Source: Rozella allomycis CSF55 (Eukaryota). From it: DNA of 48,766 nucleotides. Positions within the stretch are counted from its first letter, which is position 1; each line of letters begins with the position of its first letter. Below the pieces are notes generated by a model. The model did no database searches and had not been told where the DNA came from. It saw only the letters and a program-made list of their open reading frames with translations. The position numbers and the translations under genes were made by a program. This document shows positions 3,001 to 38,290 of the stretch, in pieces. The stretch covers positions 1 through 48,766 of the forward strand of contig KE560785.1 in the NCBI GenBank assembly GCA_000442015.1. The letters run 5' to 3'.

Positions 3001-5003
3001 ATTAAACAACTCTCTCAAATTATTTTGCAACGGAGTTCCAGATAAAATCACTCTATGGTTACTTTTAATTCCAATAATCTTTTTAAATAATTTCCCTTGA
3101 TCATTCTTCAGCTTATGTCCTTCATCAATNATCAATTACTAACGCTTCCCATCTAATCTTTTCAAAATATGAAATATCAGAAAATATCGATTCAAATGTT
3201 GTAATCATCACATGAAATTTTATAGTCTTCTTCTTTTCATCTTTCCATAGTTCATATTCTCTAATTATCTTTCTAGCTTCACCTGAACCATAATAACTAA
3301 CAACAAATATATCTGGACAAAACTTGGAAAACTCATTCATCCAATTTCCCAACGTTGAATTAGGAACGATAATCAAAAATGGAAACAACTTGTATTTTTT
3401 CAATACCATCCCAATAAACCCAATTGTTTGAAGCGTCTTTCCTAGTCCCATATCATCACACAACGCTGCTCCTTGTCTCTTCAAATATTTATACATCAAC
3501 CAACTATTTTATTTCATTCATTCATCAGTCTTACTTTATCCCCTCCTCTTGATGCTCCATTAACGTACAATTCTTTATAAACCCTGGCGTTCCTTTAAAC
3601 GGCTTAAATATTTTAGCTTCAAGGTCAAAATCAATCTTTCTTCTCAAAGTTGAATCTATTTTCTCTTTTTCTTTATATCTCTTCAAACACTCTTCAAACG
3701 ATCTTTTATATTCATCATCAATATCAAACGGCTCATATTCCCATGTTGATTCATCATAGTTCAAATCCTTCCATTTAATCAAATACGTTTTATCAAACTT
3801 GTGATCTTTATATGTCGGCCCTTTAAATACTTTATCACTGTAATCAAACTTTATCAAATCTTCAACGCCTTCCAATGGATCATCCCTCTCATTCGATATA
3901 TACAAGATTCTATCAATAACCTTCCACGCAGAATTATCAATCCCATGCGACTCTATCCTTCGCTTTCTCAAAAATTCATCTTCTTCGTTCCTTCTCTCCT
4001 TGAAATTCTTCAATTTCCTCGGCGACTTTTTCATCAAAAACGACTCTGGTATCCATTCATTATGTCGATGACTCAATTTCACAAACTTACAAAAATACTC
4101 CTTTTCTCTACCCTTCTCTCCATCCCCGCAAATATAAACACTTCCCAAGTCTTCATCATCGCTAAATCCCTCTCTGTCCCTCACATCCAAAATATTCTCC
4201 ACATCCTCACTCCATCGCACACATTTCGCACACGTAAAATCATTCCTCACATAATACTCACTATTATACTTGAACGCCTTTCTTTGATAACTCTCGATAA
4301 CAATCCTCTCACTCAAACACTCAAAATGGTATGTCATGAAACACTTTCTACATCGGAACATCACTGCCTCATCCCTTTTATCATCTCCACAATGGTAACA
4401 ACTTAACCATTCTTCTCTCACACAATACTTACATTCACCATCAACCCCGCGTCTATCACACGACTCGTGAAACGTAAAACTACACGATTCACAACACTTC
4501 ACATTCCTCTTGTCCTGGCATCTATAACACTCGCCTCTATGTCTATCATCACCTTCTAATCTCTCCTGTCCATCGCCAAACTCTTTAAATTCATCCTCCT
4601 CACTCTCCTCACTCTTATTTGTATCGCTCATCTCATCACCCCCACTCTCATCGCTCAAAACCTCATCATCNNNNNNNNNNNNNNNNNNNTCAAAACTTGC
4701 ATCACTCGTCCTTTTCTTATAAACTCTCTTCACTCTCGGCTTCTCACTATACTCGGACCCACTCTCCTCCTTTTCACTCAACATCTGCTCATCTTGCTCC
4801 CCGTCACTTAATAGATTCTCAGATACCGCACTCTCATACACCTCCTCGTTTAGCGGCTCCCCTCCTGACATGTCGCAACCAATATTCTCTTCGCCAGGTC
4901 CAGACATGTTTTCATCATACAAAATAGATCTAGATGATTTGGCAACCTCGCTTAAAGTCTGAGTTGGAATGTCAGACTGCTTGTCGATGCTCGGTGATTC
5001 CAT
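46..5003 (-). CDS. CHD3/Mi-2/Mit1-like chromatin remodeller (PHD fingers, chromodomains, SNF2 ATPase, low-complexity N/S-rich tail)
   Basis: PHD-like CYRC..CESC..FHESC and CYHC..CRKC..YHFECL; chromodomain YLIKWKDLNYDESTWE; SNF2 motifs DDMGLGKT, IDEGH, LSGTPLQNN, GGVGINL, QAYCRAYRIGQ. One 31-nt GT-AG intron at 3504-3534. The apparent frameshift at n3130 is a duplicated ATTGAT contig overlap. N-gap near 4671-4689. Start codon approximate. Confidence 0.9.
1160..1225 (-). repeat. 18-bp tandem repeat (about 3.5 copies) encoding (L)GLNSQ in the CHD tail
   Basis: ctatttaatcccaattga / ctatttaaccctaattga / ctatttaatcccaatttg / ctgtttaaacca. Confidence 0.8.
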
Positions 5004-10593: not shown

Positions 10594-10760
10594 ATGACAC
10601 AAAAGCTTAGCATTGAACAGAAGATAAGCGAAGCCGAAAAACGAGTTCGAGAAGAAGAGGTAGACAAAAGAAGAGATACTGAAAATCAATACCAGTCACT
10701 TAAGCGGCAACGAGATTCCCTTCAACAAGAATTTGAGAATCTTCATTCCAGATATTTGTA
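10594..10760 (+). CDS. Short coiled-coil ORF, possibly a 5' exon spliced onto NF-YB
   Basis: MTQKLSIEQKISEAEKRVREEEVDKRRDTENQYQSLKRQRDSLQQEFENLHSRY; frame open back to 10567 after a 26-nt GT-AG intron-like segment at 10541-10566. Confidence 0.4.
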
Positions 10761-10808
10761 AAAAGGGTAACATGAGCTCCATTTTGTAATGCCCAAAATG
10801 CAAGCCAC

Positions 10809-11171
10809 ATGGACAACCAACAGCATAACACAGCAGAATCATTTGAAGGCTTCAAAGAAAATGATAGATTACTACCTATAGCAAATGTTGGACGCATAAT
10901 GAAATCTATTTTACCGGCGAACGCCAAGATAGCTAAAGATGCCAAGGAATCGATGCAAGAATGTGTTTCTGAATTTATTTGTTTTATTACTAGCGAGGCT
11001 TCTGACCGTTGTTTGGCAGAAAAGAGGAAAACGATGAATGCGGAGGATATTCTGGTTGCAATGGAAGCGCTAGGTTTTGATAACTATGTAGAGATTTTGA
11101 GAAAGTATATGCAAAAATATAAAATTGCTTCGACAGCGATTACTAATAATACAACGCCAACAGATGAATGA
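10809..11171 (+). CDS. HAP3: CCAAT-binding factor subunit NF-YB/HAP3 (histone fold)
   Basis: [56 protein letters not shown]. Confidence 0.93.
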
Positions 11172-11211: not shown

Positions 11212-13714
<2,503 letters not shown>

Positions 13715-16929: not shown

Positions 16930-17991
16930 ATGGAGTTAGACGCCGGGAACATCCCAAAAGAATTTGAAAATGATTGTGATTCAATCCCATCTACCTCAAG
17001 CGAAAGTGAAGGTGAACAAGTGATATTGACACATGCTATGATAGATGAGATGGAGGAAGACACTTTGGCAGACTTGCATGTTCCAATGACGAAAAATGAG
17101 TTATCGGTAATGCTTATTAAAATCTATAAAAGGCTTTAAATCCCCTAGAGCCTTTTGAAAATCCGTATTTGGACAAGGAAAATGAGATTTGTTTGCTTGG
17201 CACAATCTTTAGCGCTTTGGATGATAATATTGTTATACAAACAACAGTTGAATGCGAGCCTTTGAATCTTGATTCATTAATAGTATTGGAGGATCGACAG
17301 ATACTAGGAAATGTGTTTGATACCTTTGGCCCCATCGTTTGCCCATTTTACACTGTCCGAATTCCATTAGCTACATTTCCTAACGCTTCTAGCCTAATCG
17401 GTAAGAATGTGTACTACGTAAAGAACCAAACCGAATTTATTAATACACGAGAAATCATGAAGTTCAAAGGAACGGACGCCTCCAATCAATATGACGAAGA
17501 AATAGACGCTGATGTAATGCCATTTTTAAACTTTAATGCAGGAGATAGAATTTTCAGATGACGAGAAAGAAATGGAATACAAAAAGTCTCTGAAATTGAA
17601 AAGACGCGGTCAAAAAAGAAATCATGAAAATACTTCAATCCCAGATGATTTGGCGTTTATAGCACAGTGTGTTGGAAGCTTTAACAATTCAAGTGAAATT
17701 CAGAAAAACTTTAACCAGTCAAATGAAATTCAGAATTCCGTAAACACGGTCGAAGATGAAGTAATGATTGAAGACGGCGAAATAGCTCTAATGGAACATC
17801 AAAATAGATCAAATGAAGAAGCAACAGTAGACAATAGTTTGGCCCCAAATGAAAAATCACCCATAAATGCTCATTTTACTTCTTCTACAAATGAAACTTC
17901 CAATTTTATAGAGAGCATTATCGCTGAATCAAAGGTACCAACGAAAATCGCCGATCCATGCGAATCAAACCTTCCCAAAAAGCAATTATAA
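16930..17991 (+). CDS. NAF1: H/ACA RNP assembly factor (Gar1-like domain)
   Basis: MTKNEL, LGNVFDTFGPIVCPFYTVR, KGTDASNQYDEE..EIEFSDDEKE; introns of 26 and 28 nt. Confidence 0.9.
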
Positions 17992-18087: not shown

Positions 18088-21452
<3,365 letters not shown>

Positions 21453-21468
21453 TCATCGATTTTAAAAA

Positions 21469-22706
21469 CTATTTATTAATACTGTTAAAGAAAATCTCTA
21501 TAATTCTATCGGCTGCTTGGGATGCTGTCAATTCATCATTTTCCAACAGTTTATCGAGAATAGGCTTGATACTTTTGACTTCACTATTTTCCTGTAACCT
21601 TTTGAAACCAGAATTTATATTTACATCCCAATCAATTGATTCTTGGCCATCCAGCAAGTCCATTTTTTCTTTTGCCTCACTCTTTTTTCTAATAGTTCCC
21701 CCGATTTCGTTTAAAATGAATTAAAACGATTACCACAGTTAAGAAATAATACTCATTTATTCCCTCCCATACTTCATTGATACCTTTTCCAGTTATAGAC
21801 GAAGCCATGTAAACCTATTACAAAAAAACACATTCTATTTACCTTTGGCGACCATACCTTTGAATTCCGTTTCATATATTTTAAGGCACTCAAATATTCG
21901 ATCTGTGCTCTTCTAGCAGTATTAATTAGTTCACCATCCGCCTTATTTACAACAACCAGATCACTTAATTCCATGATACCTTTCTTCATTCCCTAATAAT
22001 AACCTTCAAAATATTTGTACTTGCAATTCGTCGCCTCCTGCGGGAGGCACTAACAAGGCAAAAATATCGACCATATCAGCTACAAGAGTTTCAGACTGAC
22101 CAACACCGACTGTTTCTACTAGGATGATATCGTATCCCGCTGCTTCACACATGACTATTGATTCATGTGTATTTCTCGCCACCCCGCCTAATGTTCCTCT
22201 GCTTGGTGTAGGCCGTACATATGCTCTGTCTTGTCTTGAAAGATTGTACATTCTTGTCTTATCACCCAATATTGAGCCACCAGATTTTGATGAACTTGGA
22301 TCAACTGCCATAACAACTAAAAGATTAACACTATTACCAGAACAGCAACCTTATATCCTTCATTCACAAGAGACATTGCAAAACTCTCGATGAATGTGGA
22401 TTTGCCGACTCCAGGGGCTCCAGATAGTCCAATTCTAAGTGTTTTGGGTTGTTTATATGTTTCGACATCTAAGGCGAATCTCTTGCTTTTTAAAAACAAA
22501 GGCGGTCTCGTTTTTAAATTTTTGAGACATTCGGTTAATAAGAACTGAGAATATTTTCTGTGTTCCGCATTATTTGATTCCACTATAGTCAGTAATGTAC
22601 ACGATCAATTACCTAATGTAATAGATTTCGCCAATGCATTTCTGCTTCCATTAATTAAGTCATGGAGCAATTTTATAATATTTGCAGGCATGGTACCTTT
22701 GGTCAT
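21469..22706 (-). CDS. MMAA: MeaB/MMAA cobalamin-chaperone GTPase for methylmalonyl-CoA mutase
   Basis: [95 protein letters not shown]; six introns of 26-30 nt, two with non-AG acceptors. Confidence 0.93.
21708..21733 (-). other. Non-canonical GT-CG intron (26 nt) in MMAA
   Basis: gtg|gtaatcgttttaattcattttaaacg|aaa tcg ggg gaa cta gives [13 protein letters not shown]; no nearby in-frame AG. Confidence 0.6.
22309..22337 (-). other. Non-canonical GT-TG intron (29 nt) in MMAA
   Basis: ctg|gtaatagtgttaatcttttagttgttatg|gca gtt gat cca gives KVAVL-AVDPSS; the AGs at 21 and 33 nt are out of frame. Confidence 0.7.
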
Positions 22707-22762
22707 GTTATTGAATTTATTCATTTTCCTAAATAAAAAAATTCAAAACAAAAAGGCTGGTA

Positions 22763-37400: not shown

Positions 37401-38290
37401 AGTTCTTATCCCCACANNNNNNNNNNNNNNNNNNNNNNNNNNNNNNNNNNNNNNNNNNNNNNNNNNNNNNNTCTTCAAAATAAAACTGCAAATTATCTCT
37501 CTCCCTCACCTCGCCAATATTGCTCAATGCCAAATCTTCCAACTCTTCCTTAAACTTTGAAAACGCCAACTTTTGAAGCTCAACAACCTTTCTCGTTTCC
37601 CTCTCATTCTGCTCCTCCTCACTATACCCCTCCCCACTATACTCATCAACAGGAAACCAAACATAAAAACACAGCGTCGCATGCAACTGTCTCAACAACC
37701 TATATCCCCACCAATAACCACTTACATCGCTTCAGGCACCCCAAACACTGGCGACATCTTGACCCGCACACAAAACTGCAAATCATCCACCAACGCTCTC
37801 ACATACTTGCGAGTAGGCAGCTGACTCAACAAATCATTGAACAACACAATCACATGCTCAACAAACGGCAGCCACTCTATCCCCTCAATCTCACTTCCAA
37901 TCACCCCATACACCCGCTCACAAAGCACCTTCAACACATCACACCGCTCATCCGCCTCCTTGACACTTTTATTATACCGCTTCCTAGCACCACTAGCCTC
38001 AAGCTCAAGCTCCAACCTTCTGCCACTCAAATGTCGCCAAATGCCAACAGAACACATCTTCAAAAGATCAGGCCGGATCTCCTCATTGTCAATTTTGCCA
38101 AAACAATGGGCTAGAAACTTTACTAGCATCACACTCTGCCCCAAATCAGTCGGTGATATCAACTGCTTCATAGTGCTCTTCAAAAGAATCGGCAAAAGTG
38201 TGTCGTCTTGGTACAAGTAGTAATCTTCTATTTGTTTATGCTATTTTAGTGGAGAAAAGGCGTTACTAGACTGACACTCTTCGTTTTCAT
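34484..38290 (-). CDS. AQR: Aquarius/IBP160/Cwf11 intron-binding spliceosomal helicase
   Basis: [108 protein letters not shown]; at least five introns of 26-29 nt; N-gap 37416-37471. Confidence 0.93.

What the first reader, a model, noticed from the sequence alone, without database searches (positions are those of the whole stretch)
22309..22337. Obligatory GT-TG intron inside the conserved KVAVL|AVDPSS motif of MMAA
Seen: exon ..gtt ctg, then gtaatagtgttaatcttttagttgttaTG (29 nt, with an in-frame TAG), then gca gtt gat cca. The AG options at 21 nt (tttag) and 33 nt (ggcag) both frameshift, and I found no alternative GT donor that keeps the motif. Established: TG acceptors are very rare and are mostly described as alternatives next to an AG. 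Inference: a constitutive non-AG acceptor in an otherwise intact gene.
Basis: partly seen in the sequence, partly recalled or inferred. Interest (0 to 1): 0.85.

Follow-up and report, generated by a model that had tools for sequence, protein, structure and literature searches.

The report
GT-TG mini-intron in Rozella MMAA gene
A conserved B12-chaperone gene of the fungal parasite Rozella allomycis can only give its normal protein if a 29-base intron ending in TG instead of the usual AG is cut out; the DNA reading is solid, but no RNA data were available to show that the cell does this.

Summary
The window is a whole 48,766-nt contig of Rozella allomycis CSF55. On the minus strand lies a MeaB/MMAA GTPase gene. 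Exon 2 ends at Pfam MeaB column 67 (KVAVL) and exon 3 starts at column 68 (AVDPSS). They are separated by 29 nt (22337-22309), GTAATA...TTATG, with an in-frame TAG.

Contigs from two read sets, from different samples and studies (depth 68 and 226), show the same letters, so TG is not a miscall.

None of 75 frame-joining GT-AG, GC-AG or AT-AC pairs keeps the motif. The database model avoids the TG with an 80-nt intron that deletes 17 conserved residues, and it scores 104 bits lower.

At 29 nt the intron sits in this genome's narrow size range (61 introns of 25-32 nt). The AG options, at 21 and 33 nt, fall outside it.

Splicing itself is untested, because no RNA run holds the gene. "Constitutive" is unsupported: an AG lies 4 nt downstream, and published human TG acceptors work only beside an AG.

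Best reading (about 0.5): TG is the productive acceptor and competes with that AG. Main rival (about 0.35): a young null allele. GT-TG introns are a known rare class.

The parts
22309..22337 (-). The 29-nt intron in question. It starts GTAATA and ends TTATG (GT..TG), with an in-frame TAG at 22319-22317. A TTAAT branch-like motif lies at intron positions 10-14. There is an internal AG at intron position 21, and the next AG is 4 nt into exon 3 (22306-22305).
22613..22724 (-). Exon 1, from the first ATG at 22724. The database model starts at the ATG 33 nt further in.
22583..22612 (-). Intron 1, 30 nt, GT..AG.
22338..22582 (-). Exon 2. It encodes the P-loop GAPGVGKST and ends in KVAVL, at Pfam MeaB column 67.
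22021..22308 (-). Exon 3. It starts [20 protein letters not shown] at Pfam MeaB column 68, contains ETVGVGQSE, and aligns to human MMAA residues 109-204.
21993..22020 (-). Intron 3, 28 nt, GT..AG.
21843..21992 (-). Exon 4, with the GMKKGIMEL and VNKADG (NKxD) motifs.
21815..21842 (-). Intron 4, 28 nt, GT..AG.
21734..21814 (-). Exon 5.
21682..21733 (-). Intron 5, most likely 52 nt, GT..AG, as in the database model. Non-canonical 22-, 25- and 28-nt versions score 3-4 bits lower.
21469..21681 (-). Exon 6 with the stop codon TAG at 21471-21469.

Best explanation
This is a real U2-type mini-intron of the Rozella allomycis MeaB/MMAA gene whose 3' end reads TG instead of AG.

Shown: the DNA sequence, the exon borders at protein-profile level, and the fit of the 29-nt length to this genome's intron size.

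Inferred: the 5' site GUAAUA is recognised as in the other introns. The branch point probably lies in UGUUAAUC, about 16 nt from the TG. The AG at 21 nt is too close to it and would give an intron shorter than any of the 61 seen here. In the second catalytic step, the G of UUAUG|G is taken as the last intron base, with U tolerated at position -2.

This junction (GTTCTG|GCAGTT) is the only one that gives a full MMAA protein. It probably competes with the AG 4 nt downstream, whose use shifts the frame. It also competes with intron retention, which exposes the in-frame TAG. Only part of the transcripts would then be productive.
For: The TG is present in contigs of two read sets from different samples and studies, with no variant.

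Pfam MeaB columns 67 and 68 abut exactly across the 29 nt.

0 of 75 canonical pairs keeps the motif, while 118 of 120 homologues have it.

Against a profile of 96 homologues, the TG model scores 471.8 bits. The best canonical alternatives score 448.2, 446.0 and 404.5 bits, and the database model 368.0.

Once the 29 nt are removed, the gene has no other lesion: 362 codons, no stop, and the P-loop, ETVGVGQSE and NKAD motifs are intact.

In the window, 61 ORF-bridging GTA..AG introns measure 25-32 nt, with 52 of them at 26-29 nt. Shorter solutions occur only at background level. 42 of 61 contain internal AGs that are passed over, two of them at position 21.

The TG has T at -3 and G at +1, as described for human TG acceptors, and it has AGs within 8 nt (PMC2374985).

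Of 4 exonic variants seen in the read contigs, 3 are synonymous.

A paper reports B12-dependent enzymes in R. allomycis (PMC8085122, passages).

RNA-supported GT-TG introns are listed in another fungus: 22 in the splice-site table for Ganoderma (PMC11590231, passages).
Against: There is no RNA evidence of any kind.

In the human screen, TG was never the sole acceptor, and AG>TG mutations activated neighbouring AGs rather than the TG (PMC2374985).

The AG 4 nt downstream would give a 33-nt intron, only 1 nt beyond the largest seen here, so it may well be preferred.

Position weight scores of the intron ends carry almost no information in this genome and do not separate the three options.

No second non-AG intron was found in the window, so there is no sign of a generally relaxed 3' rule. 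That scan was crude, however, and its thresholds would have missed this very case.

The two read sets carry the same organism label, so they say nothing about conservation among isolates.
Confidence: 0.5

Rival explanations
1. Young null allele or nascent pseudogene. An A-to-T change destroyed the acceptor, either in this strain or recently in the lineage. Transcripts are then spliced at the AG 4 nt downstream or 8 nt upstream, or stay unspliced. All of these hit a premature stop, and no functional MMAA is made.
For: Human AG>TG acceptor mutations activate neighbouring AGs and not the TG (PMC2374985). A usable AG lies 4 nt downstream. Rozella is a reduced obligate parasite in which losing a cofactor chaperone is conceivable (my own knowledge). 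All read sets that cover the site carry one organism label.
Against: No second lesion exists anywhere in the 362 codons, and all GTPase motifs are intact, so any inactivation would have to be very recent. 3 of 4 exonic variants are synonymous. No AG allele is seen at depth 68 or 226, although another part of the gene shows two forms in X3. B12-dependent enzymes are reported for this species (PMC8085122).
Confidence: 0.35
2. The database gene model is right. An 80-nt GT..AG intron (22337-22258) is removed, giving a protein that lacks [17 protein letters not shown].
For: It is the shortest in-frame join from the GTAATA donor at 22337 that obeys GT-AG. It is the model deposited for this contig (P0010).
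Against: It deletes 17 residues, and 118 of 120 homologues carry the motif at their start. It costs 67 bits against the homologue profile. The deleted stretch is still a perfect match to the family, 75-86% identical over exon 3. The same model also drops GMK and VWSPK, which homologues have, so it looks like an ab initio prediction. An 80-nt intron is far outside the 25-32 nt class.
Confidence: 0.05
3. Split gene. The first part ends at the TAG inside the '29 nt', and the second part is translated separately from the ATG formed by the last three bases (22311-22309, MAVDPSS...), for instance by re-initiation 5 nt after the stop.
For: The last three intron bases are ATG, in frame with exon 3. 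The ORF listing reports an ATG-started ORF at 22311-22006. The upstream frame stops 5 nt before it.
Against: The break would fall inside the GTPase core, between the strand after the P-loop and switch I. No homologue among the 120 is split there. The stretch looks like a standard local intron in its GTAATA start, 29-nt length and 76% A+T. Re-initiation after a 128-codon ORF is not a usual eukaryotic mechanism (my own knowledge). Given TG, an A before it is a 1-in-4 coincidence.
Confidence: 0.03
4. Sequencing or assembly error, with the true genome having AG.
For: The assembly has single-N positions and differs from both read sets at 21894.
Against: Contigs from two runs of different samples and studies, at depth 68 and 226, agree with the window over 22309-22337, with no substitution, indel or bubble.
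Confidence: 0.02

Closest known systems
TG 3' splice sites in TG-AG tandems of U2-type introns (human; Szafranski et al. 2007, PMC2374985)
   Same: GT donor and TG as the last two intron bases. Pyrimidine at -3 and purine at +1. An AG within a few nucleotides, here +4 and -8, against the published limit of 28 nt.
   Different: In the human cases the TG form is an alternative isoform and the AG form is also viable. Here only the TG junction keeps the frame and the conserved motif, so the AG forms would be waste products. The intron is 29 nt long in a genome whose introns are 25-32 nt. Usage is not shown here.
Rare GT-TG introns in RNA-supported fungal annotations (Ganoderma lingzhi, 22 listed in its splice-site table, 0.024%; PMC11590231)
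   Same: Fungal nuclear gene, GT-TG borders, rare exception among GT-AG introns.
   Different: Those are backed by transcript data. This one rests on DNA and protein homology only, and the deposited annotation of this genome does not contain it.
Ultra-short intron systems (microsporidian 23-30 nt introns; Paramecium about 25 nt; R. allomycis S23 introns about 30 nt, as noted in PMC6349667 and in the abstract of PMC5014332)
   Same: Very narrow intron length window, weak branch-point signal, and stop codons inside introns so that retention is non-productive.
   Different: Those descriptions concern GT-AG introns. A non-AG end in such a system has not been described in the papers I saw.
MeaB/MMAA G3E GTPase, chaperone of methylmalonyl-CoA mutase (PF03308; PDB 2www, 2qm7)
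   Same: The host gene is a clear member. Exon 3 matches human MMAA at E 7e-43 and MeaB at 1e-36.
   Different: Nothing unusual in the protein itself. The N- and C-terminal parts are more diverged than the core.

Membership tests
MeaB/MMAA GTPase (Pfam PF03308) | Profile match above the curated cut-off | tested here: met
   Exon 3: 146.8 bits. Exon 2: 42.2 bits. Database model: 208 bits. The cut-off is 23.1. Human MMAA 2www matches at E 7.2e-43.
MeaB/MMAA GTPase (Pfam PF03308) | P-loop GxxGxGKS/T, the AVDPSS...[11 protein letters not shown] segment, the ETVGVGQSE (DxxG-type) motif and NKxD. These motif names are recalled from my knowledge of G3E GTPases. | tested here: met
   [38 protein letters not shown] and VNKADG are all present in the exon translations. 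118 of 120 homologues share [AS][VI]DPSS.
MeaB/MMAA GTPase (Pfam PF03308) | Partner enzyme methylmalonyl-CoA mutase present in the same genome | not testable with these tools
   No whole genome is held. A paper states that R. allomycis has B12-dependent enzymes, but the passages seen do not name the mutase (PMC8085122). Its supplements were not seen.
Canonical U2-type GT-AG intron | GT at the 5' end with the local consensus GTA[AT] | tested here: met
   The intron starts GTAATA. 46 of 61 local introns have A at position 4.
Canonical U2-type GT-AG intron | AG at the 3' end | tested here: not met
   The end is TG, confirmed in two read sets.
Canonical U2-type GT-AG intron | Length within the range used by this genome | tested here: met
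   29 nt. The local set is 25-32 nt, with 11 of 61 at exactly 29.
TG-AG tandem acceptor (Szafranski 2007) | An AG acceptor within 28 nt of the TG | tested here: met
   AG 4 nt downstream (22306-22305) and 8 nt upstream (22318-22317). The criterion comes from PMC2374985.
TG-AG tandem acceptor (Szafranski 2007) | Both junctions observed in transcripts | not testable with these tools
   No RNA run holds the gene. The one RNA run laid had no contig on it.
U12-type (minor) intron | 5' site [AG]TATCCTT and a TCCTTAAC-like branch site (recalled consensus) | tested here: not met
   The intron starts GTAATAGT and has no TCCTTAAC-like motif.
Pseudogene | Further disabling lesions (frameshifts, stops, lost motifs) besides the acceptor | tested here: not met
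   With the 29 nt removed, the gene reads 362 codons without a stop and scores 471.8 bits against 96 homologues. This does not exclude a very young null allele.

The most novel reading that the evidence does not exclude
In Rozella's ultra-short-intron splicing system, the 3' end is set mainly by distance from the 5' site and branch point. A TG at the right distance then serves as the sole productive, routinely used acceptor of an essential-pathway gene. That would be an effectively AG-independent second-step choice maintained by selection, in contrast to the human rule that TG never stands alone.
Probability: 0.2. Interest if true: 0.6.

Novelty: new member of a known kind. Interest (0 to 1): 0.38.

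Why it matters
If the TG junction is used, this is a natural case where the only productive acceptor of a conserved gene is non-AG, in a genome whose introns are 25-32 nt long. It would be a compact test bed for how the second splicing step picks its 3' site, by geometry or by the AG dinucleotide.

On the practical side, the deposited gene model for this Rozella protein is wrong. It lacks 17 conserved residues of the GTPase core, plus two smaller pieces. Gene callers that insist on GT-AG silently damage such genes, and surveys of B12 metabolism in early fungi use these models.

If instead the site is dead, it marks the chaperone of methylmalonyl-CoA mutase as a gene caught at the moment of loss in a reductive parasite.

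Tried and rejected
RNA evidence: the look-up of sequencing runs listed no RNA holder for the gene. The one RNA run laid (X8, a metatranscriptome) had no contig on the stretch. This says nothing either way about expression.

Run X6 covered only 21400-21881 at depth 2-5 and did not reach the intron.

Relatives: one metagenome scan with the database protein returned 79 loci, all 35-47% identical (bacterial-type MeaB) and none a close relative. The orthologous intron therefore could not be compared (the first try did not complete).

A second possible non-canonical intron, between LTV and NEIGG near 21733, was rejected. The canonical 52-nt GT..AG intron gives the better profile score, 471.8 against 467.7-468.8 bits.

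Scans for other non-AG introns in the window gave only false leads. The donor at 12647 is explained by a canonical intron at 12700-12675. The donor at 17107 contains a canonical 26-nt solution. The 29-nt GT..TG candidate at 10758-10786 is the spacer between a stop codon and the start of an NF-YB-like gene. The scan's coding-score threshold would have missed the MMAA case itself, so the blank is weak.

Position weight matrices of the intron ends do not discriminate between the 21-, 29- and 33-nt options.

My early guesses at the organism (ciliate, Blastocystis, dicyemid) were dropped when the database hit named Rozella allomycis.

Paper searches for splice-site oddities in Rozella found nothing on non-canonical sites. 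Supplements were closed and not seen.

Full report
**What is there.**
The finding lies on the minus strand. Read that way, a gene starts at the ATG at 22724 and is interrupted by very short GT..AG introns of 30, 28 and 28 nt.

Between exon 2 (ends ...AAG GTT GCT GTT CTG, KVAVL, at 22338) and exon 3 (starts GCA GTT GAT CCA, AVDP, at 22308) lie 29 nt, 22337-22309. They begin GTAATA and end TTATG, with an in-frame TAG at 22319-22317.

**Identity of gene and organism.**
The exon 3 translation (96 aa) hits the Pfam family MeaB (PF03308) at 146.8 bits, and exon 2 hits it at 42.2 bits. Exon 3 aligns end to end with human MMAA (PDB 2www, E 7e-43) and with bacterial MeaB (2qm7, E 1e-36).

In the large protein database, one hit is 100% identical, comes from a contig of exactly 48,766 nt, and is named 'ArgK protein domain-containing protein [Rozella allomycis CSF55]' (P0010). 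The window is therefore a whole contig of that cryptomycotan parasite of the water mould Allomyces.

**Is the junction really forced?**
Three results say yes.

- Profile position: exon 2 ends at MeaB column 67 and exon 3 begins at column 68, so no residue is missing or added.
- Homologues: of the 120 listed, 118 contain [AS][VI]DPSS, and 112 of them have it directly after [AS]VL. The two without it are P0010 itself and a 214-aa fragment.
- Enumeration: I listed all GT-AG, GC-AG and AT-AC pairs around the site. That gave 75 stop-free combinations that join the two frames, and none keeps the motif.

The nearest canonical options replace AVDP(S) with VIV or VIVLIFY (35-nt and 23-nt introns) or delete 17 residues (80 nt).

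I scored the options against a profile built from the 96 homologues of 300-480 aa, out of the 120; P0010 and the shorter or longer ones were left out. The GT..TG model gets 471.8 bits. The canonical alternatives get 448.2, 446.0 and 404.5 bits. The deposited model P0010 gets 368.0.

P0010 uses the 80-nt solution (KVAVL|TRMYN). It also drops GMK and VWSPK, which homologues possess. It looks like an ab initio model constrained to GT-AG.

**Is the TG a sequencing error?**
No RNA run holds the gene. Five DNA-type runs hold half or more of its sampled words, and a sixth holds a smaller part. I laid contigs of four runs.

- X1 (depth 68) covers the whole stretch in one contig, with two substitutions elsewhere.
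- X3 (another sample and study, depth 226) has a contig over 22021-22566 with no difference.
- Neither run shows a variant or bubble at the intron, although X3 keeps a two-arm bubble at 22537-22689.

Both runs differ from the window at 21894, so they do not merely echo its consensus. One of them may still be the source of the assembly. Both carry the same organism label, so this confirms the base call but not conservation among isolates.

**Context: this genome's introns.**
I made a mechanical survey of the window for GTA..AG segments that bridge two open frames of at least 30 codons. It shows a sharp peak at 26-29 nt (53 solutions) over a background of 1-4 per length at 15-25 nt.

The 61 cases with a unique acceptor measure 25 (1), 26 (11), 27 (16), 28 (14), 29 (11), 30 (3), 31 (3) and 32 nt (2). 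Some of them may be false.

Of these, 42 contain internal AGs that are passed over, including two with an AG ending at position 21. The branch signal is weak. A TTAAT-like motif 12-18 nt from the 3' end occurs in a minority.

A published note that R. allomycis S23 introns are about 30 nt and lack conserved branch motifs agrees with this (PMC6349667, passages).

The candidate is 29 nt, starts GTAATA, has 76% A+T and has TTAAT at positions 10-14. It is an ordinary local intron in everything but its penultimate base. The two AG options would give introns of 21 and 33 nt, both outside the observed 25-32 range. Weight matrices of the ends are nearly uninformative here and do not separate the options.

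**Is the rest of the gene healthy?**
With the 29 nt removed and a canonical 52-nt fifth intron, the gene reads 362 codons to the TAG at 21471-21469 without a stop.

I briefly suspected a second non-canonical intron near 21733. The canonical 52-nt version scores better, 471.8 against 467.7-468.8 bits.

The variants seen in the read contigs are three synonymous changes, one A43E in the poorly conserved N-terminus, and five non-coding changes, three of them within the 30-nt intron 1. These numbers are small, but they point towards purifying selection.

A survey of cobalamin use in early fungi states that R. allomycis has B12-dependent enzymes (PMC8085122, passages). I could not check the mutase gene because no genome is held.

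**What is known about TG acceptors.**
The human genome-wide screen found TG acceptors in 36 genes. They always occurred as alternatives in TG-AG tandems no more than 28 nt apart, never as the sole acceptor. The paper also cites human AG>TG mutations that activated neighbouring AGs instead of the TG (PMC2374985, abstract and one Results section).

GT-TG is also listed among rare classes in a transcript-supported fungal annotation, with 22 GT-TG entries in a splice-site table headed by 89,855 GT-AG introns (PMC11590231, passages). A functional GT-TG site in human GNAS is mentioned in PMC4176328 (passages).

From memory, not from a call: yeast reporters with UAG changed to UUG still complete the second step at reduced efficiency. 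Spliceosome structures show the last G pairing with the first G of the intron and the -2 A contacting the branch adenosine.

**Reading.**
The DNA-level claim is sound, and the protein-level argument that only the TG junction gives MMAA is strong. What is missing is any proof of use.

The site is a TG-AG tandem (AG at +4 and at -8), so 'constitutive' is not warranted. I think it most likely (about 0.5) that the TG is the productive acceptor, favoured by the tight length window, and that it competes with the +4 AG, whose product and the unspliced form both end prematurely.

The main rival (about 0.35) is a very recent null allele. The human mutation data favour it. The complete absence of other damage counts against it.

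The deposited 80-nt model, a split gene restarting at the ATG formed by the intron's last three bases (ORF 22311-22006), and a base-calling error are minor rivals.

**Novelty.**
GT-TG introns are a known rare class, so this would be a new member. Its added interest is that the TG would be the only productive site, in an ultra-short-intron genome.

I found no paper on non-canonical splice sites in Rozella. Supplements were closed.

Noticed in passing
whole window, both strands: Introns are ultra-short and tightly sized. 61 ORF-bridging GTA..AG candidates all measure 25-32 nt, 52 of them 26-29 nt. The branch-point signal is weak, and internal AGs are often skipped (42 of 61).
   Followed up: partly
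window 21469-22724, minus strand (database protein P0010): The deposited protein model of this gene differs from the homology-supported model at three further places. It starts 11 codons later, drops GMK after GDELQ (a later AG is chosen), and drops VWSPK (an earlier donor is chosen). Together with the 17-residue deletion, it scores 104 bits below the corrected model.
   Followed up: yes
window 21682-21733, minus strand: The fifth intron of the gene seems to be 52 nt, well outside the 25-32 nt class. An open frame ([13 protein letters not shown]) runs through its 3' half and first suggested a second non-canonical intron. Profile scores favour the canonical 52-nt version by 3-4 bits only.
   Followed up: partly
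window 21452-21469 and 22725-22762: Genes are packed extremely tightly. The next minus-strand ORF (the start of a helicase-like gene with a DExH-type motif further on) begins at an ATG 16 nt after the MMAA stop codon. A divergent plus-strand ORF of 294 aa starts 38 nt from the MMAA ATG.
   Followed up: no
window 10595-11170, plus strand: A short coiled-coil ORF ends at 10758-10760. About 50 nt later an NF-YB/HAP3-like histone-fold gene starts (ATG near 10809). This is another example of a very short same-strand spacer, and it mimicked a 29-nt GT..TG intron in my scan.
   Followed up: partly
window 22537-22689: Run X3 holds two forms of this stretch (depths 118 and 217) that differ at 6 sites in 93 nt. 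Three of the sites are in the 30-nt intron 1. The rest of the gene shows one form, and run X1 shows only the window's form. The arm depths do not add up to the depth of the flanks (205-226).
   Followed up: no
window 3130, 18260, 18940, 38711; 4671-4689; 37417-37471: There are four single-N positions and two short N runs in the contig. Both read sets differ from the window at 21894 (A>G, synonymous), so the deposited consensus has small uncertainties.
   Followed up: no
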